Part shown: positions 5,070-45,309 of the stretch, in pieces
How the letters are laid out: each line of letters begins with the position of its first letter
How positions within the stretch are numbered: the stretch's first letter is position 1
Assembly (NCBI RefSeq): GCF_003334765.1
Contig: NZ_QOWT01000005.1
Direction: 5' to 3' (one strand)
Source of the DNA: Escherichia coli
GTDB taxonomy: Bacteria; Pseudomonadota; Gammaproteobacteria; Enterobacterales; Enterobacteriaceae
Length of the DNA stretch: 64,000 nt
The notes under the pieces: model-generated
Databases searched by the model: none
Seen by the model: only the letters and a program-made list of their open reading frames with translations
What the model was told of the DNA's origin: nothing
Translations under genes and position numbers: made by a program

Positions 5070-6965
<1,896 letters not shown>

Positions 6966-6976
6966 AGGAAAGAACA

Positions 6977-7001
6977 TTGCCCGGTCAGGATGGCCGGGCA
7001 A
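6977..7001. terminator. Bidirectional hairpin between convergent parE and ygiN (TTGCCCGG-9 nt-CCGGGCAA)
   Basis: 8-bp perfect inverted repeat read directly between two convergent stops. Confidence 0.5.
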
Positions 7002-7012
7002 ACAAGGCAGGA

Positions 7013-7327
7013 TTAAATCCCTGGCTGCAGAATACGGATATTCATCTCCAGCACGTCGCCTTTTACGGCTTCGCTGTACGCCTTCATGTGCGGGGTTTGC
7101 AGATGCGCTTCAAGGTGCGCGATGCTTTCCCACTGCTCAATCATCACGATAGAATCCGGTGCCATAGACTGGAAACTCACGCCAGCAGCGCAATCCACCA
7201 TTGGCGCATAGCCGTGGCAACCTTCTTCTTTCAGTACGGTTGGAACGATTTTAGCAAACTGATCCAATACCGCCTGACGGTGATGTTGACCAGGACGAGT
7301 ACGGATTTCTGCGATTACGGTAAGCAT
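7013..7327 (-). CDS. ygiN: Quinol monooxygenase YgiN (ABM domain)
   Basis: 104 aa ORF; recognisable YgiN sequence; adjacent to mdaB. Confidence 0.9.
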   Translation of the reverse strand: MLTVIAEIRTRPGQHHRQAVLDQFAKIVPTVLKEEGCHGYAPMVDCAAGVSFQSMAPDSIVMIEQWESIAHLEAHLQTPHMKAYSEAVKGDVLEMNIRILQPGI

Positions 7328-7357
7328 GGTTAACTCCTTCTAAAGCCTGAGCTCTAG

Positions 7358-7939
7358 TTAACCAAAAATTTCCACAAGATGCTTGCGATATTCTTCAGTA
7401 TAGCGGGGAACATCAGGCATTTTTATCACGTCATTAGCGATAAATGTCGGCAGCGGTTCCATACCGAGGAATTGGTTTGCTTTATGGAACGGCAGATACA
7501 CACCGTCAACGCCAACGCCGTGGAAGAACTGATCTTTTTCGGTGAAGGCTTCCATTGGTGCGTTCCAGGTCAGAGAAAGCATATATTTTTTGCCCTGTAC
7601 CAGGCCGCCGGAACCGTATTTTTTTGACGGATCTTTGCGGGTACGACCATCGCTGGCATACAGCGTCCCGTGACCTTCGGTGAATACATCATCAATGTAT
7701 TTTTTCACTGTCCACGGCGCGCCCATCCACCAGCCTGGCATCTGCCAGATCACCACATCAGCCCAGAGAAAGTTTTGTACTTCCGCTTTGACATCGTAGT
7801 CGCTGTCGGCGCGAACGATGCGAACATCATGCCCGAGGTCGCGCAGTGTGCCATCCGCGACTTCGGTCAGGGTGTCGTTCAGTTGACCATTGGAGTGGGC
7901 GAATTTTTTCGCGCCGTTGATAATCAGGATGTTGCTCAT
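7358..7939 (-). CDS. mdaB: NADPH:quinone oxidoreductase MdaB (flavodoxin-like)
   Basis: 193 aa ORF; recognisable MdaB sequence. Confidence 0.9.
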   Translation of the reverse strand: MSNILIINGAKKFAHSNGQLNDTLTEVADGTLRDLGHDVRIVRADSDYDVKAEVQNFLWADVVIWQMPGWWMGAPWTVKKYIDDVFTEGHGTLYASDGRTRKDPSKKYGSGGLVQGKKYMLSLTWNAPMEAFTEKDQFFHGVGVDGVYLPFHKANQFLGMEPLPTFIANDVIKMPDVPRYTEEYRKHLVEIFG

Positions 7940-8257
7940 TTTTTAACCTCAAAGTGAGACGTTTGCCGACTATAGTACGTCACAGAGCGGTACGGTGAAA
8001 TTAGCAAAATGTGCAAAGTCTTTTGCGAATTTAGCAAAAGTCTGATCTAGCTCTGACTCACCGATGCAGGATAAATATTTTCTGAAAATGACAATACTGA
8101 TAGCCATTCCTCATAATTCTTACTCGCACCGGAATAATTTACACGTTTGGTTCGGTTTTTTTGGGGATTGAAAATATGGCTTTGAATAAGTAAAAGATGA
8201 AAGTATCAACGTGTCATGTTGATAATTATAAATGGATTTTTATGAGCGTACTGATAT

Positions 8258-8590
8258 ATGTTAAAGCAGAAAATTAAAACAATATTTGAAGCATTGCTAT
8301 ATATAATGCTTACTTATTGGTTAATAGATTCTTTTTTTGCTTTCAATAAGTATGACTGGATGCTTGAGTCGGGAGGAAATATTTGCAGTATACCTTCCGT
8401 TTCAGGCGAAGATCGTATATTGCAAGCAATGATTGCAGCATTTTTTCTTCTTACGCCACTTATTATTCTTATCTTAAGAAAACTCTTTATGCGGGAAATG
8501 TTCGAGTTTTGGGTATATGTATTCTCGCTCGGTATTTGTCTGGTTTGTGGTTGGTGGCTTTTTTGGGGACGGTTTATATTTTGCTATTAG
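8258..8590 (+). CDS. ygiZ: Small inner-membrane protein YgiZ
   Basis: 110 aa hydrophobic ORF in a strongly AT-rich stretch between mdaB and qseC; conserved position. Confidence 0.7.
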   Translation: MLKQKIKTIFEALLYIMLTYWLIDSFFAFNKYDWMLESGGNICSIPSVSGEDRILQAMIAAFFLLTPLIILILRKLFMREMFEFWVYVFSLGICLVCGWWLFWGRFIFCY

Positions 8591-8635
8591 TAAAATCTAT
8601 GAGAGTCGTTTTAACGGCTCTCATAGACAGAGAAG

Positions 8636-9985
8636 TTACCAGCTTACCTTCGCCTCAAATCCACCTTGTTCCGCATTCCCAAATTCAACATTCATGCCAT
8701 GCAATTTGGCGATTCGCTGGACAATCGATAGCCCAAGCCCGCTGCCGGTAGCGGTTTGTCCGGGGGGGCGATAGAAGCGTTCGCCAATTCGCGCCAGTGC
8801 CTCTGGCGTCACACCGGGGCCGTTATCCCTCACGATGAAATTATCAGCATTCAGCGTGACGTCTACCACGCTGCCCTGTGGACTGTAGCGCACGGCGTTA
8901 TCCAGCAAATTTCGCACCAACAAACTTAGCAATAGCGGTTGCCCGGTGCGTTTGATGCTGTGGGCATTGAGTGTCAGTCGCACGTCAATTTTCGCCTGCT
9001 GCGCCGTGTGGTAAATATCCATCACCGACGATTGCAGGAGATCTTCAAGCGGGATCTCCGCGACGTCCTGAAGGTTATCCAGTGAGTCCAGCCGCGATAG
9101 CGTGAGCAGTTGATCAACCAGACGAGTAGCGCGATCGATCCCGGAATGTAATTGGAGCAGTGCTTTTTTCCGCGCCTGCGGATCATCGTCAGAGAGCTGC
9201 GCAACTTCGGTTTGCACTTTCAGCGCCGTTAACGGGCTACGAAGTTCGTGAGCTGCGTCGGAGGTAAAGCGTCGTTCACGAACCATCATCGCATGTGTGC
9301 GGGCGAACAGTTGATTTAGCGACTCAACCAGTGGCCGCACTTCGCTGGGTACGCCAGTCGCGTTTAGTGGTTTTTCCGAGTCAGGGTCACGCATACGTAG
9401 TGCCAGCGCCAGTTTGTTCAGCGGCGCGAGTTCACGACCCAGTAGTACCATCATGATGATTAACATAATCGGCAGTGCGACCAGCCACGGGATCAATTGC
9501 CCGGCAACAATCGCCAGCGCCATGTCTTCACGGTATTCCCATTCCTGGCCAACAACGATGCGATATTTGCCATCAGGTGAGGTCATCCAGACAAAACGCC
9601 AAGGATCGTCTTCACCGACCAGTTGCCCGTCAGCAAAACCTTCCCGTTGATAGCTATAGGGAATATCTTCTCCGTTATCGCCATCATTAAGGACCATTCT
9701 GCCGTCGTGGGTAAAGATGGCAAAGGTCAGCGCATCGTCATCAACATGACCGTGTTTTAATCTATTTGGCGTCTGTGCCATGCGATCCGCCGCGTTGATT
9801 TCGTTGAGATCGAGCGTACTTAACCGCTTGGCAAACAGCATCAGTTGGGTGTCGAACAATTCATCGACGTTATCCGTTGTTTGTTTCCAGGCGACAAAGC
9901 TGGAAAGCAGCCAGGTCACCGAGGCCAGAATTAAAAAGATTAGCGTCAGCCTGACGCGCAGACTAAGACGTTGGGTAAATTTCAT
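8636..9985 (-). CDS. qseC: Sensor histidine kinase QseC
   Basis: 449 aa; two N-terminal TM segments, H-box ([14 protein letters not shown]), HATPase motifs; 4-nt overlap with qseB. Confidence 0.9.
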
Positions 9986-10641
9986 TTCTCACCTAATGTG
10001 TAGCCAATACCATGCACGGTACGAATAAAATCACTACCGAGTTTGCGTCGCAGATGATGCACATGCACTTCAACGGCATTACTGGTGACCTCTTCGTCCC
10101 AGGTATACAGTTTCTCTTCAATCAGTTTGCGCGGCAGTACTCGACCAGCGTTACGCATCAGTAATTCCAGCAGGGCAAATTCTTTTGGTTTCAGTGTTAA
10201 GGGTTCGCCAGCCAGCGTGGCGATACGTTTGCCGGGGTCGAGCATGACGTTACCGTGGCGCAGCTCGTTGCTGGCCTGGCCGTTGGTTCGGCGCATCAGA
10301 GCTTCCAGCCTGGCGGCGACTTCTATCAACGCAAAAGGTTTACACAGATAATCGTCAGCTCCCAGACGCAGCCCTTCTACACGTTCCGCCAGCGCATCGC
10401 GCGCGGTCAGGATCAGTACCGGCTCACGCTGACCTTTTTCTCGCCATTCGCGCAAAATATCGCGACCATCCATGCCTGGTAAGGTTAAATCCAGGATCAC
10501 CGCATCATAAGGTGCGCTATAAAGCGCCTCTTTTCCCTGACGACCTTGTGTAAACCAGTCGACGCTAAAACCCATTTTACTAAGGCCCGTTTTGATGCCG
10601 TCGCCAATCAGCATGTCATCTTCTATCAGTAAAATTCGCAT
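9982..10641 (-). CDS. qseB: OmpR-family response regulator QseB
   Basis: 219 aa; receiver domain (MRILLIEDD...[10 protein letters not shown]) plus winged-helix output domain. Confidence 0.9.
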
Positions 10642-10792
10642 TTTTTCATCCCTGCGATAACCGTATTTGCTGCCAGTAAACCGTGTTGTAACGCGCTCTG
10701 TACAGCACTAAATTTTATTTTTTTCCCTTAAGAAGTTGTTAAGGACTATCTTGTTAAATGCTCGGAAACAGACATTAAAGGGAGTAATAAAC

Positions 10793-11185
10793 ATGAAAAA
10801 ATTCGCAGCAGTAATCGCAGTAATGGCCCTGTGCAGCGCACCGGTGATGGCAGCAGAGCAGGGCGGTTTTTCTGGCCCATCGGCAACGCAAAGTCAGGCC
10901 GGAGGATTCCAGGGGCCGAACGGCAGCGTAACGACTGTAGAAAGCGCAAAATCCCTGCGTGACGACAGCTGGGTAACCCTGCGCGGCAATATCGTTGAAC
11001 GCATCTCTGACGATCTCTACGTGTTCAAAGATGCCAGCGGTACTATCAATGTTGATATCGACCACAAACGCTGGAACGGCGTGACGGTGACGCCGAAAGA
11101 TACGGTTGAGATTCAGGGTGAAGTCGATAAAGACTGGAATTCTGTTGAAATTGACGTCAAACAGATCCGCAAAGTAAATCCGTAA
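10793..11185 (+). CDS. ygiW: Periplasmic OB-fold (BOF family) stress protein YgiW/VisP
   Basis: 130 aa from ATG at 10793 with AAAGGGAG Shine-Dalgarno; signal peptide MKKFAAVIAVMALCSAPVMA; divergent from qseBC. Confidence 0.85.
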   Translation: MKKFAAVIAVMALCSAPVMAAEQGGFSGPSATQSQAGGFQGPNGSVTTVESAKSLRDDSWVTLRGNIVERISDDLYVFKDASGTINVDIDHKRWNGVTVTPKDTVEIQGEVDKDWNSVEIDVKQIRKVNP

Positions 11186-11237: not shown

Positions 11238-11720
11238 ATGACAAACCTGACACTGGATGTAAACATTATCGATTTCCCATCAATACCTGTGGCGATGTTG
11301 CCGCACCGCTGTAGCCCTGAATTGCTCAACTACAGCGTGGCGAAATTTATCATGTGGCGTAAAGAAACGGGGCTTTCTCCTGTTAACCAAAGCCAGACTT
11401 TTGGCGTCGCCTGGGACGACCCTGCCACCACCGCACCGGAAGCGTTTCGCTTTGATATCTGCGGCAGCGTTAGCGAACCGATTCCCGATAATCGTTATGG
11501 TGTGAGCAATGGTGAACTTACCGGTGGACGTTATGCCGTGGCCCGCCACGTTGGCGAGCTGGACGATATTTCACACACGGTATGGGGCATCATTCGCCAC
11601 TGGCTGCCTGCAAGCGGCGAGAAAATGCGTAAAGCACCGATTCTGTTTCACTACACCAATCTTGCCGAAGGGGTGACAGAGCAGCGACTGGAAACGGATG
11701 TTTATGTGCCGTTGGCGTGA
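11238..11720 (+). CDS. ygiV: GyrI-like (AraC effector-binding-domain-like) protein YgiV
   Basis: 160 aa ORF; conserved position between ygiW and mqsR. Confidence 0.8.
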   Translation: MTNLTLDVNIIDFPSIPVAMLPHRCSPELLNYSVAKFIMWRKETGLSPVNQSQTFGVAWDDPATTAPEAFRFDICGSVSEPIPDNRYGVSNGELTGGRYAVARHVGELDDISHTVWGIIRHWLPASGEKMRKAPILFHYTNLAEGVTEQRLETDVYVPLA

Positions 11721-11849
11721 TGCCTGACTCCAGCTTCCCTTATAAATTCCTGCTTCAAACTGGCGCTACTAATGCGCCACTTTCTTATATGGTCAATCAC
11801 TTTCCTTAAAGAATACGTTTTGTGTGGTCACTATCTCCGTACATCTAAC

Positions 11850-11863
11850 TAACCTTTTAGGTG
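11850..11863 (+). promoter_or_regulatory. MqsA operator palindrome 1 (ACCT-TTT-AGGT core)
   Basis: Palindrome read directly about 65 bp upstream of the mqsR ATG; matches the remembered MqsA recognition palindrome. Confidence 0.6.
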
Positions 11864-11881
11864 CTTTTTCATTGCTGTAAT

Positions 11882-11896
11882 TAACCTTTTAGGTTA
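11882..11896 (+). promoter_or_regulatory. MqsA operator palindrome 2 (TAACCTTTTAGGTTA)
   Basis: Perfect palindrome read directly about 30 bp upstream of the mqsR ATG. Confidence 0.65.
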
Positions 11897-11924
11897 TAAC
11901 TAAAGTAACAGGGAGGCGGGGGTT

Positions 11925-12221
11925 ATGGAAAAACGCACACCACATACACGTTTGAGTCAGGTTAAAAAACTTGTCAATGCCGGGCAAGTTCGTACAACAC
12001 GTAGTGCACTGTTAAATGCAGATGAGTTAGGTTTGGATTTTGATGGTATGTGTAATGTTATCATTGGATTATCAGAGAGCGACTTTTATAAAAGCATGAC
12101 CACCTACTCTGATCATACTATCTGGCAGGATGTTTACAGACCCAGGCTTGTTACAGGCCAGGTTTATCTTAAAATTACGGTAATTCATGACGTACTGATC
12201 GTCTCGTTTAAGGAGAAGTAA
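11925..12221 (+). CDS. mqsR: Type II toxin MqsR (mRNA interferase)
   Basis: 98 aa; recognisable MqsR sequence; immediately followed by mqsA. Confidence 0.9.
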   Translation: MEKRTPHTRLSQVKKLVNAGQVRTTRSALLNADELGLDFDGMCNVIIGLSESDFYKSMTTYSDHTIWQDVYRPRLVTGQVYLKITVIHDVLIVSFKEK

Positions 12222-12222
12222 T

Positions 12223-12618
12223 ATGAAATGTCCGGTTTGCCACCAGGGAGAAATGGTTTCTGGCATTAAAGATATTCCATACACCTTCCGTGGACGAAAA
12301 ACAGTATTGAAAGGTATCCACGGTTTATATTGTGTCCATTGCGAAGAGAGCATCATGAATAAAGAAGAGTCAGATGCTTTCATGGCGCAAGTAAAGGCAT
12401 TTCGGGCTTCGGTGAATGCCGAAACAGTGGCACCTGAATTTATAGTGAAGGTTCGAAAAAAGCTCTCTCTTACCCAAAAAGAGGCAAGCGAAATTTTTGG
12501 GGGAGGTGTAAATGCGTTTTCGCGTTACGAAAAAGGCAATGCCCAACCTCATCCTTCCACAATCAAACTTTTACGTGTTCTGGATAAGCATCCAGAACTA
12601 TTGAATGAAATCCGTTAA
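12223..12618 (+). CDS. mqsA: Antitoxin and transcriptional regulator MqsA (zinc-ribbon plus HTH)
   Basis: 131 aa; N-terminal CxxC...CxxC zinc ribbon (CPVCHQ...CVHCEE) and C-terminal HTH; starts 1 nt after the mqsR stop. Confidence 0.9.
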   Translation: MKCPVCHQGEMVSGIKDIPYTFRGRKTVLKGIHGLYCVHCEESIMNKEESDAFMAQVKAFRASVNAETVAPEFIVKVRKKLSLTQKEASEIFGGGVNAFSRYEKGNAQPHPSTIKLLRVLDKHPELLNEIR

Positions 12619-41662: not shown

Positions 41663-43522
41663 ATGAGCAAAGGAACGACCAGCCAGGATGCCCCGTTCGG
41701 GACATTATTGGGCTACGCCCCAGGTGGGGTAGCAATCTACTCTTCAGATTACAGTTCTCTCGATCCGCAGGAATACGAAGATGACGCCGTATTCCGTAGC
41801 TATATCGACGATGAATATATGGGCCACAAATGGCAATGCGTTGAATTTGCTCGCCGTTTTCTCTTTCTGAATTACGGTGTGGTCTTCACTGACGTGGGTA
41901 TGGCGTGGGAGATTTTCTCGCTGCGCTTCCTGCGTGAAGTGGTTAATGACAACATCCTGCCATTGCAGGCATTTCCTAATGGCTCGCCGCGTGCACCGGT
42001 CGCGGGCGCGCTTCTTATCTGGGATAAAGGCGGTGAATTTAAAGACACTGGCCATGTCGCCATCATTACTCAATTGCATGGCAACAAAGTCCGTATTGCG
42101 GAACAGAACGTGATTCATTCCCCGTTGCCGCAAGGGCAACAGTGGACACGCGAGCTGGAGATGGTGGTCGAAAACGGCTGCTATACCCTTAAAGACACGT
42201 TTGATGACACCACCATTCTGGGCTGGATGATCCAGACGGAAGATACCGACTACAGCTTACCGCAGCCGGAAATTGCAGGCGAGCTGCTGAAAATCAGCGG
42301 AGCGCGTCTGGAAAACAAAGGTCAGTTTGACGGTAAATGGCTGGATGAAAAAGATCCGCTACAAAATGCCTACGTGCAGGCCAACGGTCAGGTGATCAAT
42401 CAGGATCCGTATCATTACTACACCATTACCGAGAGCGCAGAGCAGGAGCTGATTAAAGCCACCAACGAGCTGCACCTGATGTATCTTCACGCCACCGACA
42501 AGGTGCTAAAAGATGACAACCTGCTGGCGCTGTTCGACATTCCGAAAATCCTCTGGCCACGTTTGCGTCTCTCCTGGCAGCGTCGCCGTCACCATATGAT
42601 CACCGGTCGTATGGATTTCTGCATGGACGAACGTGGCCTGAAGGTCTACGAATACAACGCCGATTCCGCCTCCTGTCATACCGAAGCGGGCTTGATCCTC
42701 GAACGTTGGGCGGAGCAGGGCTATAAAGGCAACGGCTTCAATCCTGCGGAAGGGCTGATTAACGAACTGGCTGGTGCCTGGAAACACAGTCGTGCACGTC
42801 CGTTTGTCCATATCATGCAGGACAAAGATATCGAGGAAAACTATCACGCGCAGTTTATGGAGCAGGCGCTGCACCAGGCGGGCTTTGAAACGCGTATCTT
42901 GCGTGGGTTGGATGAACTGGGCTGGGATGCTGCCGGGCAACTGATTGATGGGGAAGGGCGACTGGTTAACTGCGTGTGGAAAACCTGGGCGTGGGAAACC
43001 GCGTTTGATCAGATTCGTGAAGTCAGCGACCGTGAGTTTGCTGCGGTGCCGATCCGTACCGGTCATCCGCAAAATGAAGTGCGTCTTATCGACGTATTGC
43101 TGCGCCCGGAAGTGCTGGTCTTTGAACCTCTGTGGACTGTGATCCCCGGCAACAAAGCGATTCTGCCGATCCTCTGGTCGCTGTTCCCGCACCATCGTTA
43201 CCTGCTGGATACCGATTTCACTGTTAATGATGAACTGGTAAAAACAGGTTACGCAGTGAAACCGATCGCCGGTCGCTGTGGCAGTAACATCGACCTCGTC
43301 AGCCATCATGAAGAGGTGCTGGACAAAACCAGCGGTAAATTTGCCGAGCAGAAAAACATCTATCAGCAACTGTGGTGTTTGCCGAAAGTGGACGGTAAAT
43401 ACATTCAGGTATGTACCTTCACCGTTGGCGGCAACTACGGTGGGACGTGTTTGCGCGGTGATGAATCACTGGTCATCAAAAAAGAGAGTGATATTGAACC
43501 GTTAATTGTGGTGAAAAAGTAA
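41663..43522 (+). CDS. gss: Bifunctional glutathionylspermidine synthetase/amidase
   Basis: 619 aa from MSKGTTSQDAPFG; N-terminal CHAP amidase (Cys in HKWQCVEFARR) and C-terminal ATP-grasp synthetase. Confidence 0.95.
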   Translation: MSKGTTSQDAPFGTLLGYAPGGVAIYSSDYSSLDPQEYEDDAVFRSYIDDEYMGHKWQCVEFARRFLFLNYGVVFTDVGMAWEIFSLRFLREVVNDNILPLQAFPNGSPRAPVAGALLIWDKGGEFKDTGHVAIITQLHGNKVRIAEQNVIHSPLPQGQQWTRELEMVVENGCYTLKDTFDDTTILGWMIQTEDTDYSLPQPEIAGELLKISGARLENKGQFDGKWLDEKDPLQNAYVQANGQVINQDPYHYYTITESAEQELIKATNELHLMYLHATDKVLKDDNLLALFDIPKILWPRLRLSWQRRRHHMITGRMDFCMDERGLKVYEYNADSASCHTEAGLILERWAEQGYKGNGFNPAEGLINELAGAWKHSRARPFVHIMQDKDIEENYHAQFMEQALHQAGFETRILRGLDELGWDAAGQLIDGEGRLVNCVWKTWAWETAFDQIREVSDREFAAVPIRTGHPQNEVRLIDVLLRPEVLVFEPLWTVIPGNKAILPILWSLFPHHRYLLDTDFTVNDELVKTGYAVKPIAGRCGSNIDLVSHHEEVLDKTSGKFAEQKNIYQQLWCLPKVDGKYIQVCTFTVGGNYGGTCLRGDESLVIKKESDIEPLIVVKK

Positions 43523-43537
43523 TACATGTTGTAGCAA

Positions 43538-43572
43538 CCCCGTACTGATTATGAAGAATAATCAGCACGGGG
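43538..43572 (+). terminator. Hairpin after gss (15-bp stem with one mismatch, 5-nt loop)
   Basis: CCCCGTACTGATTAT-gaaga-ATAATCAGCACGGGG read directly; no strong T-tract. Confidence 0.45.
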
Positions 43573-43809
43573 ATTAATCAAAACATTCAACATTTATATA
43601 TTCCAATATTTATTTAATATATGAATATATTAACCAGTGGAATACCTGTGTTTTGATTATTTCTAAAGATTTTGAATGAATGCTTATTGTCTGATACACA
43701 AGAAATAACACGCTTTTTATCGTTAAAAAATGATATTTCACTTTGCCCATGCCGTTAAAGTCACTGATAATGCGTCCGTTCGTAAATTCAAAATGGCGTA
43801 ATCTAATAT

Positions 43810-45309
43810 ATGCTAAATTTATTTGTTGGCCTTGATATATACACAGGGCTTTTGTTATTACTTGCTCTGGCATTTGTGTTGTTCTACGAAGCAATCAATG
43901 GTTTTCATGACACGGCGAATGCGGTGGCAACCGTTATTTATACTCGTGCCATGCAACCACAACTTGCTGTGGTGATGGCGGCATTTTTTAATTTTTTTGG
44001 CGTGTTATTGGGCGGACTTAGCGTTGCCTATGCCATTGTCCATATGTTGCCAACCGATTTGTTGCTGAATATGGGGTCAACCCACGGTCTGGCGATGGTC
44101 TTTTCCATGCTGCTGGCGGCGATTATCTGGAACCTGGGAACGTGGTTCTTTGGTTTACCGGCCTCCAGTTCGCACACCTTGATTGGTGCGATTATCGGCA
44201 TCGGTTTAACCAACGCGCTGTTAACCGGCTCATCGGTGATGGATGCGTTAAACCTGCGTGAAGTGACCAAAATTTTCTCCTCGCTGATTGTTTCCCCTAT
44301 CGTCGGCCTGGTCATTGCGGGTGGTCTGATTTTCCTGCTGCGCCGTTTCTGGAGCGGGACGAAAAAGCGTGACCGTATTCACCGCATTCCGGAAGATCGC
44401 AAAAAGAAAAAAGGCAAACGTAAGCCGCCATTCTGGACGCGTATTGCGCTGATTGTTTCCGCTGCGGGCGTGGCGTTTTCGCACGGCGCTAACGACGGGC
44501 AGAAAGGGATCGGCCTGGTGATGCTGGTACTGGTGGGGATTGCCCCTGCTGGCTTCGTCGTCAATATGAACGCGTCCGGCTATGAAATTACCCGTACCCG
44601 CGATGCCGTCACCAACTTCGAACACTACCTGCAACAGCATCCTGAACTGCCGCAGAAGTTGATTACGATGGAACCTCCATTGCCTGCGACATCGACTGAT
44701 GGCACGCAAGTAACAGAGTTTCACTGTCATCCGGCAAATACCTTTGATGCGATTGCGCGCGTTAAAACGATGCTGCCAGGCAATATGGAAAGTTACGAGC
44801 CGTTAAGCGTGAGTCAGCGCAGCCAGCTGCGCCGCATTATGCTGTGCATCTCTGATACCTCCGCGAAGCTGGCGAAACTGCCAGGCGTCAGTAAAGAAGA
44901 CCAGAACCTGCTGAAAAAACTGCGCAGCGATATGTTAAGCACCATTGAGTACGCACCGGTGTGGATCATCATGGCGGTAGCACTGGCGCTCGGCATCGGC
45001 ACCATGATTGGCTGGTGTCGTGTAGCGATGACCATCGGTGAGAAGATTGGTAAGCGCGGCATGACGTATGCGCAAGGCATGGCGGCACAAATGACGGCGG
45101 CAGTGTCTATCGGCCTTGCCAGTTATATTGGGATGCCCGTCTCCACAACACACGTCCTCTCGTCTGCAGTAGCAGGGACGATGGTGGTGGACGGCGGTGG
45201 GTTACAGCGTAAAACGGTAACCAGCATCCTGATGGCGTGGGTGTTTACTTTACCGGCGGCGATTTTTCTTTCTGGTGGGTTGTACTGGATAGCATTGCAG
45301 TTGATTTAA
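43810..45309 (+). CDS. pitB: Low-affinity inorganic phosphate transporter PitB
   Basis: 499 aa polytopic membrane protein; PiT family; AT-rich leader upstream. Confidence 0.9.

What the first reader, a model, noticed from the sequence alone, without database searches (positions are those of the whole stretch)
7960..8600. Strongly AT-rich islet containing ygiZ
Composition drops sharply between mdaB and qseC, and the only ORF is a small hydrophobic protein. The pattern suggests an old horizontally acquired or H-NS-bound insert within core genes.
Basis: seen in the sequence. Interest (0 to 1): 0.2.

Follow-up and report, generated by a model that had tools for sequence, protein, structure and literature searches.

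The report
Leftover immunity gene of bacterial weapon
The AT-rich patch between mdaB and qseC is real, and it is what remains of a three-gene type VI secretion cassette (tube protein, cell-wall-cutting toxin, small membrane protein); this strain keeps only the last gene, ygiZ, most likely as a stand-alone antidote against E. coli strains that still carry the toxin.

Summary
Window 7940-8635 has GC 0.35 against 0.52 for the window, the lowest 640-bp stretch in the 64 kb. ygiZ has GC3 0.33 against 0.58 ± 0.05.

The locus has three forms in 5,426 complete E. coli genomes:
- ygiZ alone, as in this window: about 61%.
- hcp, a 236-aa gene ("X") and ygiZ: 23%, including ST131, Nissle and APEC strains.
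- empty, as in O157:H7: about 15%.

All 1,261 genomes with full-length X have ygiZ directly downstream.

The Hcp–X–DUF2645 triplet recurs in Citrobacter and Pseudocitrobacter at the same mdaB/qseC site. It also occurs at other chromosomal sites or on plasmids in Pectobacterium, Erwinia, Serratia, Chania and Rahnella. Decayed copies in Citrobacter and Serratia lose hcp and X but keep the DUF2645 gene.

Best reading: YgiZ, a three-helix inner-membrane protein, is the cognate immunity protein, kept here as an orphan. This is inferred and was not tested by experiment. I found no paper linking ygiZ or DUF2645 to T6SS. H-NS binding was not tested.

The parts
7940..8043 (.). mdaB-proximal intergenic DNA. 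It is AT-rich but core, so it is not part of the accessory islet.
   Evidence: Query positions 1-104 match in all 5,426 E. coli genomes, including the O157:H7-type empty allele.
8044..8635 (.). The accessory islet proper: the stretch missing from the empty (O157:H7-type) allele, where mdaB and qseC are 109 bp apart.
   Evidence: Local blastn: window 7358-8043 and 8636-8700 align to L001, and nothing between does. L001 annotation is. ygiZ is absent from 826 of 5,426 genomes.
8044..8116 (+). Segment shared with cassette-bearing strains, where it lies upstream of hcp. It is probably the cassette's promoter region; a sigma-70-like site lies at 8088-8117.
   Evidence: Window 7358-8116 aligns to L002 973-1731 at 96.8%, and hcp starts at L002 1804. 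Promoter-like ATGACA-18-CATAAT, 10/12 matches. The promoter role is inferred. BglJ-RcsB activation of the mdaB-ygiZ intergenic fragment is published (PMC3950696).
8117..8247 (.). 131-bp K-12-type 'filler' standing where cassette strains have hcp plus X (1,261 bp). Its origin is unknown.
   Evidence: No significant similarity to the cassette in DNA (score 25 against shuffles 21.4 ± 2.7) or protein (best tblastn E 0.12). Single copy, found in 3,030 genomes.
8258..8590 (+). ygiZ: a 110-aa DUF2645 inner-membrane protein with three predicted helices. Proposed to be an orphan T6SS immunity gene.
   Evidence: Pfam DUF2645. Helices 1-27, 50-77 and 81-109 in the model and in the hydropathy profile. Invariant C43 and C109. 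Sits directly downstream of X in 1,261 of 1,261 E. coli genomes with full-length X and in every complete cassette from other genera.
8596..8628 (.). Strong hairpin between the convergent ygiZ and qseC genes: a candidate transcription stop. There is no clear U-run on the + strand.
   Evidence: 14-bp stem, dG -21.3 kcal/mol, z -6.4, and none of 200 shuffles folds as well. Conserved in cassette alleles (self-inverted blast match). The terminator scan did not call it.

Best explanation
The islet is the decayed remnant of a small mobile type VI secretion (T6SS) cassette with three genes: hcp, X and ygiZ. Hcp is an orphan tube protein. X is a soluble 236-aa protein without a signal peptide, with a lytic-transglycosylase/lysozyme-like fold, most likely carried out of the attacker with the Hcp tube and active on peptidoglycan in the target's periplasm. 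YgiZ is a three-helix inner-membrane protein whose conserved loop (about residues 29-55, motif N-K-Y-D-W-M...C) and C-terminal Cys are predicted to face the periplasm; it would neutralise X there. The cassette entered the qseC-mdaB spacer, in the opposite orientation, in an ancestor shared with Citrobacter and Pseudocitrobacter. In the lineage of this window hcp and X were lost, and ygiZ was kept behind what was probably the cassette's promoter, as an orphan immunity gene that protects against E. coli strains still armed with X. What is shown: the composition, the three allele classes, the conserved triplet, the decay series, the fold of X and the domain fusions of X. What is inferred: secretion of X, the enzymatic target of X, the topology of YgiZ, and neutralisation of X by YgiZ.
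For: 1. Allele classes in 5,426 complete E. coli genomes. ygiZ is in 4,600. hcp+X is in 1,262, including ST131, Nissle/EcN, APEC IMT5155 and O18:H1. The K-12-type region at full length is in 3,330. The rest are empty.
2. Toxin/antidote asymmetry. A probe spanning the X 3' end and ygiZ is fully covered in 1,261 genomes, the same number that carry full-length hcp+X. X therefore never occurs without ygiZ, while ygiZ without X is common.
3. The Hcp-X-DUF2645 triplet, with X-to-DUF2645 spacing of -14 to +6 nt, occurs in unrelated neighbourhoods: Chania, Pectobacterium (pagP/eamA site), Erwinia sorbitola, Candidatus Erwinia impunctatus (two tandem DUF2645 genes), Serratia sp. H1w, Serratia plasmids and a Rahnella megaplasmid (X only 40% identical). 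Citrobacter werkmanii and Pseudocitrobacter carry it at mdaB/qseC.
4. Independent decay keeps the DUF2645 gene. A Citrobacter freundii-like allele has a stop at hcp codon 31 and an hcp'-'X deletion fusion, but an intact 110-aa DUF2645 gene. Serratia fonticola keeps only the last 118 residues of X plus DUF2645. Serratia oryzae keeps only the last 12-14 codons of X plus DUF2645, next to conjugation genes.
6. The upstream gene in cassette strains is a true TssD/Hcp (TIGR03344, 197.6 bits against a cut-off of 58.9).
7. ygiZ is still under purifying selection as an orphan. dN/dS is 0.2-0.4, and the gene is intact in 4,582 of 4,600 carriers. Its protein diverges faster than Hcp and X (33-62% against 55-77% identity), as immunity genes usually do.
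Against: - No experiment shows that X is secreted or toxic, or that YgiZ binds or neutralises it.
- Known immunity proteins against peptidoglycan-degrading T6SS effectors are soluble periplasmic proteins or lipoproteins (my knowledge). A polytopic membrane immunity protein is more typical of pore-forming toxins.
- X gives no Pfam SLT hit even at E ≤ 10. Foldseek E-values are weak (0.15). The model has low-confidence stretches at residues 1-35 and 85-114, next to the proposed catalytic Glu.
- A fused X-linker-YgiZ AlphaFold model gave no confident interface (pLDDT 46, pTM 0.34).
- The 131-bp filler shows no trace of hcp or X, so the loss event in this lineage cannot be reconstructed.
- Published phenotypes of ygiZ (BglJ-RcsB activation; overexpression improves sabinene tolerance) point to envelope stress, not T6SS (PMC3950696, PMC7181518).
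Confidence: 0.72

Rival explanations
1. ygiZ is a stand-alone envelope-stress membrane protein of the Rcs/BglJ regulon. Its position next to hcp-X in some genomes is hitch-hiking, not a toxin-antidote relationship.
For: BglJ-RcsB activates the ygiZ promoter, and mutating its binding site abolishes activation (PMC3950696). ygiZ is up-regulated in a sabinene-tolerant strain, and its overexpression improves growth and cell shape under sabinene (PMC7181518). Most E. coli carry it without X.
Against: DUF2645 genes lie immediately downstream of X, overlapping it or within 6 nt, in every complete cassette across at least eight genera and in unrelated neighbourhoods, even where X is only 40% identical. 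Orphan copies in Serratia still carry X 3' fragments. The family is confined to a few Enterobacterales, which does not fit a general stress function.
Confidence: 0.12
2. The islet is a functionless relic. ygiZ is a decaying leftover ORF kept only by drift, and the AT-rich DNA is silenced and irrelevant.
For: hcp and X have been lost. Selection on ygiZ is more relaxed than on its neighbours (dN/dS 0.2-0.4 against 0-0.06 for mdaB). About 15% of E. coli lack the islet without obvious cost. IS1 insertion occurs in one strain.
Against: The ORF is full-length in 4,582 of 4,600 carriers. dN/dS is well below 1 in orphan-orphan comparisons. The same gene is the one retained in independent decays in Citrobacter and Serratia. 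It has a regulated promoter and an overexpression phenotype (PMC3950696, PMC7181518).
Confidence: 0.08
3. YgiZ belongs to the cassette but is not the antidote. It is a membrane accessory factor for X or Hcp (loading or export), or X is a housekeeping cell-wall remodelling enzyme for T6SS assembly rather than a toxin.
For: Lytic transglycosylases are recruited for T6SS assembly in some bacteria (MltE in enteroaggregative E. coli; my knowledge). MltE is among the top structural matches of X. A polytopic protein is unusual as immunity to a wall-degrading effector.
Against: X has no signal peptide and no hydrophobic segment (maximum 19-residue Kyte-Doolittle score 0.87), so it cannot reach its own periplasm through Sec. 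Its domain is fused to PAAR, Rhs-core and eCIS-core delivery modules, which is typical of toxins. An accessory factor would have no reason to be kept after hcp and X are lost, yet it is, repeatedly.
Confidence: 0.06

Closest known systems
T6SS Hcp-linked cargo effector/immunity pairs that degrade peptidoglycan glycan strands (Tse3/Tsi3 = Tge1/Tgi1 of P. aeruginosa; Tge2/Tgi2 of P. protegens)
   Different: X has no detectable sequence similarity to them (no PDB sequence hit; no Pfam hit). Its closest folds are family-1 lytic transglycosylases. Tsi3 and Tgi2 are soluble periplasmic proteins or lipoproteins (my knowledge), whereas YgiZ is a three-helix integral membrane protein.
Orphan immunity genes of T6SS and other contact-dependent weapons (hcp-island orphan immunity arrays in Pantoea, PMC9796082; orphan immunity in Vibrio cholerae; acquired interbacterial defence clusters in Bacteroides, my knowledge)
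   Same: An immunity gene is retained without its toxin and is more widespread than the toxin itself. In Serratia oryzae an orphan copy sits next to conjugation genes.
   Different: Here it is a single gene at a fixed chromosomal site in about 61% of complete E. coli genomes, including K-12 and BL21-type strains. It has its own regulated promoter and is not part of an array.
Hcp-ET 'specialised' effectors of E. coli (Hcp fused to C-terminal toxin domains; Ma et al. 2017, cited in PMC11148199)
   Same: Toxin delivery is linked to Hcp in Enterobacteriaceae, with small auxiliary hcp modules outside the main T6SS clusters.
   Different: In intact cassettes Hcp and X are separate genes. The fusions seen (P0002, P0010/L020) are deletion products, and the L020 one also has a premature stop in hcp. 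They look like decay, not design.
Integral-membrane immunity proteins of pore-forming colicins and of membrane-targeting T6SS effectors (for example Cai/Cei, Tsi5; my knowledge)
   Same: Small size and 3-4 transmembrane helices in the inner membrane.
   Different: Their toxins are helical pore formers with a hydrophobic hairpin. X has no hydrophobic segment and has a glycosidase-type fold with an invariant Glu.

Membership tests
Pfam DUF2645 (PF10840) | Significant match to the family HMM over most of its length | tested here: met
   E 1.3e-9, residues 13-109 against model positions 5-98 of 98. RefSeq annotates the gene as 'DUF2645 family protein'.
T6SS immunity protein (functional class) | Encoded immediately next to its cognate effector gene, on the same strand | tested here: met
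   Met in relatives, not in this window. Spacing from X to DUF2645 is -14 to +6 nt in 13 cassettes, and 1,261 E. coli genomes have the two genes contiguous. In the window the effector is absent, so the gene is an orphan.
T6SS immunity protein (functional class) | The toxin is never found without the antidote, while the antidote may occur alone | tested here: met
   1,261 genomes carry full-length hcp+X and 1,261 carry X joined to ygiZ. About 3,330 carry ygiZ alone. Orphan copies occur in Serratia, Chania and Escherichia whittamii.
T6SS immunity protein (functional class) | Located in the compartment where the toxin acts (the periplasm for a wall-degrading effector) | tested here: inconclusive
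   There are three hydrophobic helices. Lys/Arg clusters at the N-terminus and at residues 74-79 suggest an N-in topology, with loop 29-55 and the C-terminus outside. This is a prediction only.
T6SS immunity protein (functional class) | Binds the effector and neutralises its toxicity | not testable with these tools
   The fused X-linker-YgiZ AlphaFold2 model was uninformative (pLDDT 46, pTM 0.34). No multimer tool or experiment was available.
TssD/Hcp (for the gene lost from this window) | Match above the curated cut-off to the TssD model | tested here: met
   TIGR03344, 197.6 bits against a cut-off of 58.9. Pfam T6SS_HCP E 8e-20.
Lytic transglycosylase / lysozyme-like superfamily (for X, lost from this window) | Lysozyme-like all-helical fold | tested here: met
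Lytic transglycosylase / lysozyme-like superfamily (for X, lost from this window) | Conserved catalytic Glu and family motifs | tested here: met
   E82 is invariant in 18 close relatives and in 38 distant fusion proteins. The S..G....Q and Y-N-x-G motifs are conserved. Their equivalence to SLT motifs I-III is my reading of the alignment.
Pfam SLT (PF01464), sequence-level membership of X | Significant HMM match | tested here: not met
   E. coli X has no Pfam hit even at E ≤ 10. Only 2 of 38 distant relatives reach E < 0.1. X should not be filed as an SLT-family member by sequence.
Lytic transglycosylase / lysozyme-like superfamily (for X, lost from this window) | Cleaves peptidoglycan glycan strands | not testable with these tools
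   Needs purified protein and muropeptide analysis.
Polymorphic toxin domain | The same domain is found at the C-terminus of different delivery modules | tested here: met
   eCIS_core (11 of 38), PAAR (2), RHS repeats (1) and Mu-F (1). An Rhs-associated core at residues 214-294 precedes the X domain at 366-524 in P0254.
Horizontally acquired genomic islet | Atypical composition and codon usage | tested here: met
   GC 0.35 against 0.52, and GC3 0.33 against 0.58 ± 0.05.
Horizontally acquired genomic islet | Presence/absence polymorphism and patchy distribution across taxa | tested here: met
   Three alleles in E. coli. A scan of 100,044 species representatives found 7 loci. Different insertion sites and plasmid copies exist.
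Horizontally acquired genomic islet | Mobility genes, a tRNA target or flanking repeats | tested here: not met
   No integrase or transposase ORF lies between mdaB and qseC. The empty-site junction shows a 5-bp filler and no evident direct repeat by eye. I did not run the repeat or tRNA tools on the islet.
H-NS-bound (xenogeneically silenced) region | H-NS occupancy, or derepression in an hns mutant | not testable with these tools
   The consensus motif TCGATAAATT is not enriched: one 2-mismatch site in the islet. The BglJ-RcsB paper did not test H-NS at ygiZ.

The most novel reading that the evidence does not exclude
DUF2645 (YgiZ, and perhaps its distant K-12 paralogue YjeO) defines a new class of polytopic inner-membrane immunity proteins. 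They would act against a previously undescribed lytic-transglycosylase-fold toxin domain that is delivered by T6SS (through Hcp, PAAR or Rhs) and by extracellular contractile injection systems. On this reading most E. coli, including laboratory K-12 and B strains that have no T6SS of their own, keep ygiZ as an orphan shield against cassette-carrying lineages such as ST131, Nissle and APEC. The locus would then be a marker of within-species warfare in the gut.
Probability: 0.6. Interest if true: 0.6.

Novelty: new member of a known kind. Interest (0 to 1): 0.45.

Why it matters
ygiZ is one of the remaining E. coli K-12 genes of unknown function, and DUF2645 has no literature at all (0 papers). 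Placing it in a T6SS effector-immunity cassette gives a simple hypothesis that can be tested with existing strains. The same analysis proposes a new effector family (X) in clinically and commercially important E. coli lineages: ST131, APEC and the probiotic Nissle 1917. The three alleles (armed, shielded, naked) could help explain strain-on-strain exclusion in the gut. A polytopic membrane protein acting as immunity to a wall-degrading enzyme would also be mechanistically unusual. The AT-rich islet as such is an ordinary sign of horizontally acquired DNA.

Tried and rejected
- Rfam scan of 7000-10800 at E ≤ 1: no RNA family.
- Terminator scan: none called. Promoter-like sites are no more frequent than in shuffles.
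- NCBIfam, PADLOC and PHROGs for YgiZ: no hits.
- Sequence searches of X against PDB, alone and as a profile: nothing significant.
- Search for hcp or X remnants in the K-12-type spacer, by DNA and by tblastn with six divergent queries: nothing above chance. The filler has no second copy in E. coli, so its origin stays unexplained.
- The hcp2B 'orphan hcp' of APEC was considered and rejected as the same locus. It belongs to the T6SS2 region with vgrG2 and xmtU/xmtV (PMC5874247).
- AlphaFold2 on a fused X-(GGGGS)6-YgiZ paired alignment of 13 cassettes, to look for a confident interface: failed (pLDDT 46, pTM 0.34), so uninformative.
- Genes downstream of the distant Rhs-X fusions (L027, L028): contigs too short or neighbours unrelated, so uninformative.
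- H-NS consensus motif scan: no enrichment.
- Literature searches for DUF2645, for the RefSeq accessions of Hcp, X and YgiZ, for Hcp with mdaB/qseC, for orphan immunity in E. coli, and for lytic-transglycosylase T6SS effectors: nothing links this locus to T6SS.
- yjeN, upstream of the paralogue yjeO, is unrelated to X.

Full report
**Where we are.** The window is Escherichia coli. The order on the + strand is parE (5073-6965, +), ygiN (7013-7327, -), mdaB (7358-7939, -), ygiZ (8258-8590, +), qseC (8636-9985, -) and qseB (9982-10641, -). The finding covers the spacer between mdaB and qseC.

- GC is 0.346 for 7960-8600 and 0.351 for the whole spacer (7940-8635). The window average is 0.517, mdaB is 0.503 and qseC is 0.532.
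- ygiZ has GC3 0.327, against 0.579 ± 0.052 for 49 long ORFs of the window, and uses six ATA codons in 110.
- YgiZ matches Pfam DUF2645. It has three hydrophobic helices.
- No Rfam family, PADLOC, PHROG or NCBIfam model matches it or the region.

**The locus is polymorphic within E. coli.** I searched the 696-bp spacer against 5,426 complete genomes. Every genome has the first 104 bases, which are the mdaB upstream region. Only 3,330 have the whole spacer. Three forms exist.
- Form (a) is the form in this window, also found in K-12 W3110 and BL21: mdaB, 318 bp, ygiZ, qseC.
- Form (b) is mdaB, an Hcp gene (159 aa), an unannotated 236-aa gene that I call X, ygiZ, qseC (L002 and L003). It is in 1,262 genomes, including ST131, Nissle 1917 (EcN), APEC IMT5155 and an O18:H1 strain.
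- Form (c) is an empty site with 109 bp between mdaB and qseC, as in O157:H7 (L001).

ygiZ itself is in 4,600 genomes, so about 826 lack it. A probe that spans the end of X and ygiZ is fully covered in 1,261 genomes, exactly as many as carry full-length hcp+X. X therefore never occurs without ygiZ, whereas ygiZ without X is the majority state. That asymmetry is what a toxin and its antidote produce.

**How the window relates to the full cassette.** Window 7358-8116 aligns with L002 973-1731 (97%), and window 8248-8700 with L002 2993-3445 (94%). The 131 bases 8117-8247 stand where L002 has 1,261 bases containing hcp and X. This filler has no detectable similarity to hcp or X in DNA or in translation, and no second copy in E. 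coli. The loss event cannot be reconstructed, and this remains unexplained. In L002 the whole cassette is as AT-rich as ygiZ (GC 0.34).

**The triplet is a conserved, mobile unit.**
- Homologues of X exist only in a few Enterobacterales, and all are annotated 'hypothetical'.
- Wherever I looked at their context, the order is Hcp, X, DUF2645, with X and the DUF2645 gene overlapping or at most 6 nt apart.
- The sites differ. The triplet is in Chania multitudinisentens. In three Pectobacterium species it lies between pagP and eamA in those whose flanks were checked. In Erwinia sorbitola it lies between a HAD-hydrolase gene and a yfbR-like gene. In Candidatus Erwinia impunctatus it lies after orn and has two DUF2645 genes in tandem. 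It is also in Serratia sp. H1w, on Serratia plasmids and on a Rahnella megaplasmid, where X is only 40% identical.
- A Cronobacter plasmid has an X relative (36% identity) followed by a 98-aa protein of the same three-helix build but barely detectable similarity.
- A pattern scan of one genome for each of 100,044 species found DUF2645 in only seven, so the family is rare and patchy.

**The insertion at this site is old.** Citrobacter werkmanii and two Pseudocitrobacter genomes carry the triplet at the same place, between mdaB and qseC. Protein identity of the cassette falls in step with the flanking genes. Against C. werkmanii, X is 74% and QseC 77% identical. Against Pseudocitrobacter, X is 66% and QseC 68%. 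Synonymous divergence of ygiZ between E. coli and C. werkmanii (about 1.0-1.3) is of the order of that of mdaB (0.8-0.9). This fits an ancient insertion followed by many losses. Exchange through the conserved flanks cannot be excluded.

**Decay keeps the last gene.**
- A Citrobacter freundii-like allele (L020, L022) has a stop at codon 31 of hcp and a deletion that fuses the end of hcp to residue 22 of X. The 110-aa DUF2645 gene behind it is intact.
- Serratia fonticola keeps only the last 118 residues of X in front of its DUF2645 gene (tblastn E 3e-48).
- Serratia oryzae keeps the last 12-14 codons, on what looks like a conjugative element beside a toxin-antitoxin pair.
- Chania has a second, solitary copy, and Escherichia whittamii has the K-12-type arrangement.
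- In E. coli the orphan ORF is full-length in 4,582 of 4,600 carriers. Its dN/dS is 0.2-0.4 whether or not X is present, against 0.05-0.14 for X and Hcp and 0-0.06 for mdaB. Selection on ygiZ is relaxed but still purifying.
- Across genera YgiZ diverges faster (33-62% identity) than X (55-74%) or Hcp (56-77%).

**What X is.**
- X has no Pfam, NCBIfam or PDB sequence match. It has no signal peptide and no hydrophobic segment.
- An AlphaFold2 model from 18 homologues (pLDDT 71.7, pTM 0.72; residues 1-35 and 85-114 uncertain) is all-helical.
- E82 (W-I-E-S/A/V-G-G), S115..Q119 and Y188-N189-R190-G191 are invariant, and E, S..G..Q and Y-N-x-G stay conserved in distant relatives. I read these as the counterparts of motifs I-III of family-1 lytic transglycosylases. 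That reading is mine, not a tool result.
- An exhaustive profile search of 1.84 billion representatives finds 373 relatives, many of them long proteins with the X domain at the C-terminus. Among 38 of these, 11 begin with the eCIS core domain, 2 with PAAR, 1 has RHS repeats, 4 have OmpA-type domains and up to 3 have PG_binding_1 peptidoglycan-binding domains. One has an Rhs-associated core directly before the X domain.
- This pattern is the signature of a polymorphic toxin domain used by contractile injection systems. The gene upstream of X is a true TssD/Hcp.

**Proposed mechanism.** In armed strains the Hcp tube carries X, a 27-kDa protein within the size range reported for Hcp cargo (PMC8262886). 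X reaches the periplasm of a neighbouring cell and cuts glycan strands. The producer and its kin are protected by YgiZ.

The predicted topology of YgiZ is N-terminus in the cytoplasm. The conserved loop 29-55 (N-K-Y-D-W-M ... C43) and the C-terminal Cys109 would face the periplasm, where the two invariant cysteines could form a disulfide. In this window only the shield is left.

The segment 8044-8116 is shared with armed strains, where it lies upstream of hcp, and it contains a promoter-like site (8088-8117). So ygiZ probably now sits behind the old cassette promoter. Published work shows that the mdaB-ygiZ spacer holds a promoter activated by BglJ-RcsB through a mapped site (PMC3950696). Secretion, target, topology and neutralisation are all inferred.

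**Weak points.**
- There is no experimental link.
- Known immunity proteins to wall-degrading T6SS effectors are soluble or lipid-anchored, not polytopic (my knowledge). Either YgiZ works differently or X acts close to the membrane.
- A co-folding attempt with a fused, paired alignment failed.
- The only published phenotypes of ygiZ concern BglJ-RcsB control and tolerance to the monoterpene sabinene when overexpressed (PMC7181518). These would also fit a general envelope role.

I rate the immunity reading at about 0.7, an independent stress role at about 0.1, and a functionless relic or a cassette accessory factor below 0.1 each.

**Comparison with what is known.** The thing works like the Tse3/Tsi3 and Tge2/Tgi2 pairs and like orphan immunity genes described in Pantoea hcp islands (PMC9796082), Vibrio and Bacteroides. 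It is not a sequence member of any named effector or immunity family. It fails the Pfam SLT test by sequence while meeting the fold test.

The APEC 'orphan' hcp2B is a different locus. Searches for DUF2645, for the RefSeq accessions of the three proteins, and for related word combinations found no paper connecting ygiZ or this cassette with T6SS. The library searched is not the whole literature.

**Verdict.** H-NS binding remains untested. The islet as such is ordinary. The added value is a specific, testable function for a K-12 gene of unknown function and for DUF2645, and a candidate new T6SS effector family in ST131, APEC and Nissle-type E. coli. I class it as a new member of a known kind, with moderate interest.

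Noticed in passing
outside the window: E. coli K-12 W3110 4390073-4390698 (L032 7074-7699): yjeO (104 aa) is a distant DUF2645-like paralogue of YgiZ (hhalign probability 78%, E 1.8e-5), with the same W-M...C loop and C-terminal F-C. It overlaps the upstream small gene yjeN by 4 nt, and yjeN is unrelated to X. NCBI names some Pectobacterium DUF2645 proteins 'YjeO family'. This may be a second toxin/antidote-type remnant.
   Followed up: partly
window 8596-8628: A perfect 14-bp-stem hairpin (dG -21.3 kcal/mol, z -6.4) lies between the convergent ygiZ and qseC stop codons and is conserved in cassette alleles. It is a possible stop for qseBC and/or ygiZ transcripts. The terminator scan did not call it.
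   Followed up: partly
L020 2605-3711 and protein P0002: There are two independent in-frame hcp'-'X deletion fusions. One is in a Citrobacter freundii-like genome, which also has a stop at hcp codon 31. The other is in an E. coli metagenome contig (Hcp residues 1-100 joined to X residue 12). They mimic Hcp-ET effectors but look like decay products.
   Followed up: partly
L024 3501-4326 (Candidatus Erwinia impunctatus): This cassette has two tandem DUF2645 genes (117 and 114 aa) after Hcp and X, a small immunity array. It is inserted after orn.
   Followed up: no
protein family level (X, L002 2286-2996): X matches phage family phrog_11932 of unknown function (E 4e-28). Its domain also occurs with the eCIS core domain, a Mu-F-like domain and OmpA/PG_binding_1 domains, and in Streptomyces and Nostoc plasmids. 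The toxin domain therefore reaches well beyond T6SS and Enterobacterales.
   Followed up: partly
protein P0004 (ENA metagenome contig, 3,074 bp): A 314-aa protein has a signal-peptide-like N-terminal 120 residues joined to X residues 44-236 at 99% identity to E. coli X. It is either an assembly chimera or a secreted variant.
   Followed up: no
window about 43200-44200, 56500-57500 and 11700-12400: These are the other low-GC stretches of the window (minimum 640-bp GC 0.364, 0.345 and 0.394). The first covers the 3' end of gss and the gss-pitB spacer. The second lies upstream of yghO, where W3110 differs from the window (IS5 and a yghQ pseudogene).
   Followed up: no
strain MB53, NZ_CP073939.1 708931-710403 (hit H1): An IS1A copy lies within the matched mdaB-qseC spacer in one otherwise identical strain.
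   Followed up: no
L018 4285-4886 (Serratia oryzae): The orphan DUF2645 gene sits just downstream of a ParD/RelE-like antitoxin-toxin pair and beside TraD-like conjugation genes. In this genome, therefore, an orphan immunity gene travels on a mobile element.
   Followed up: no
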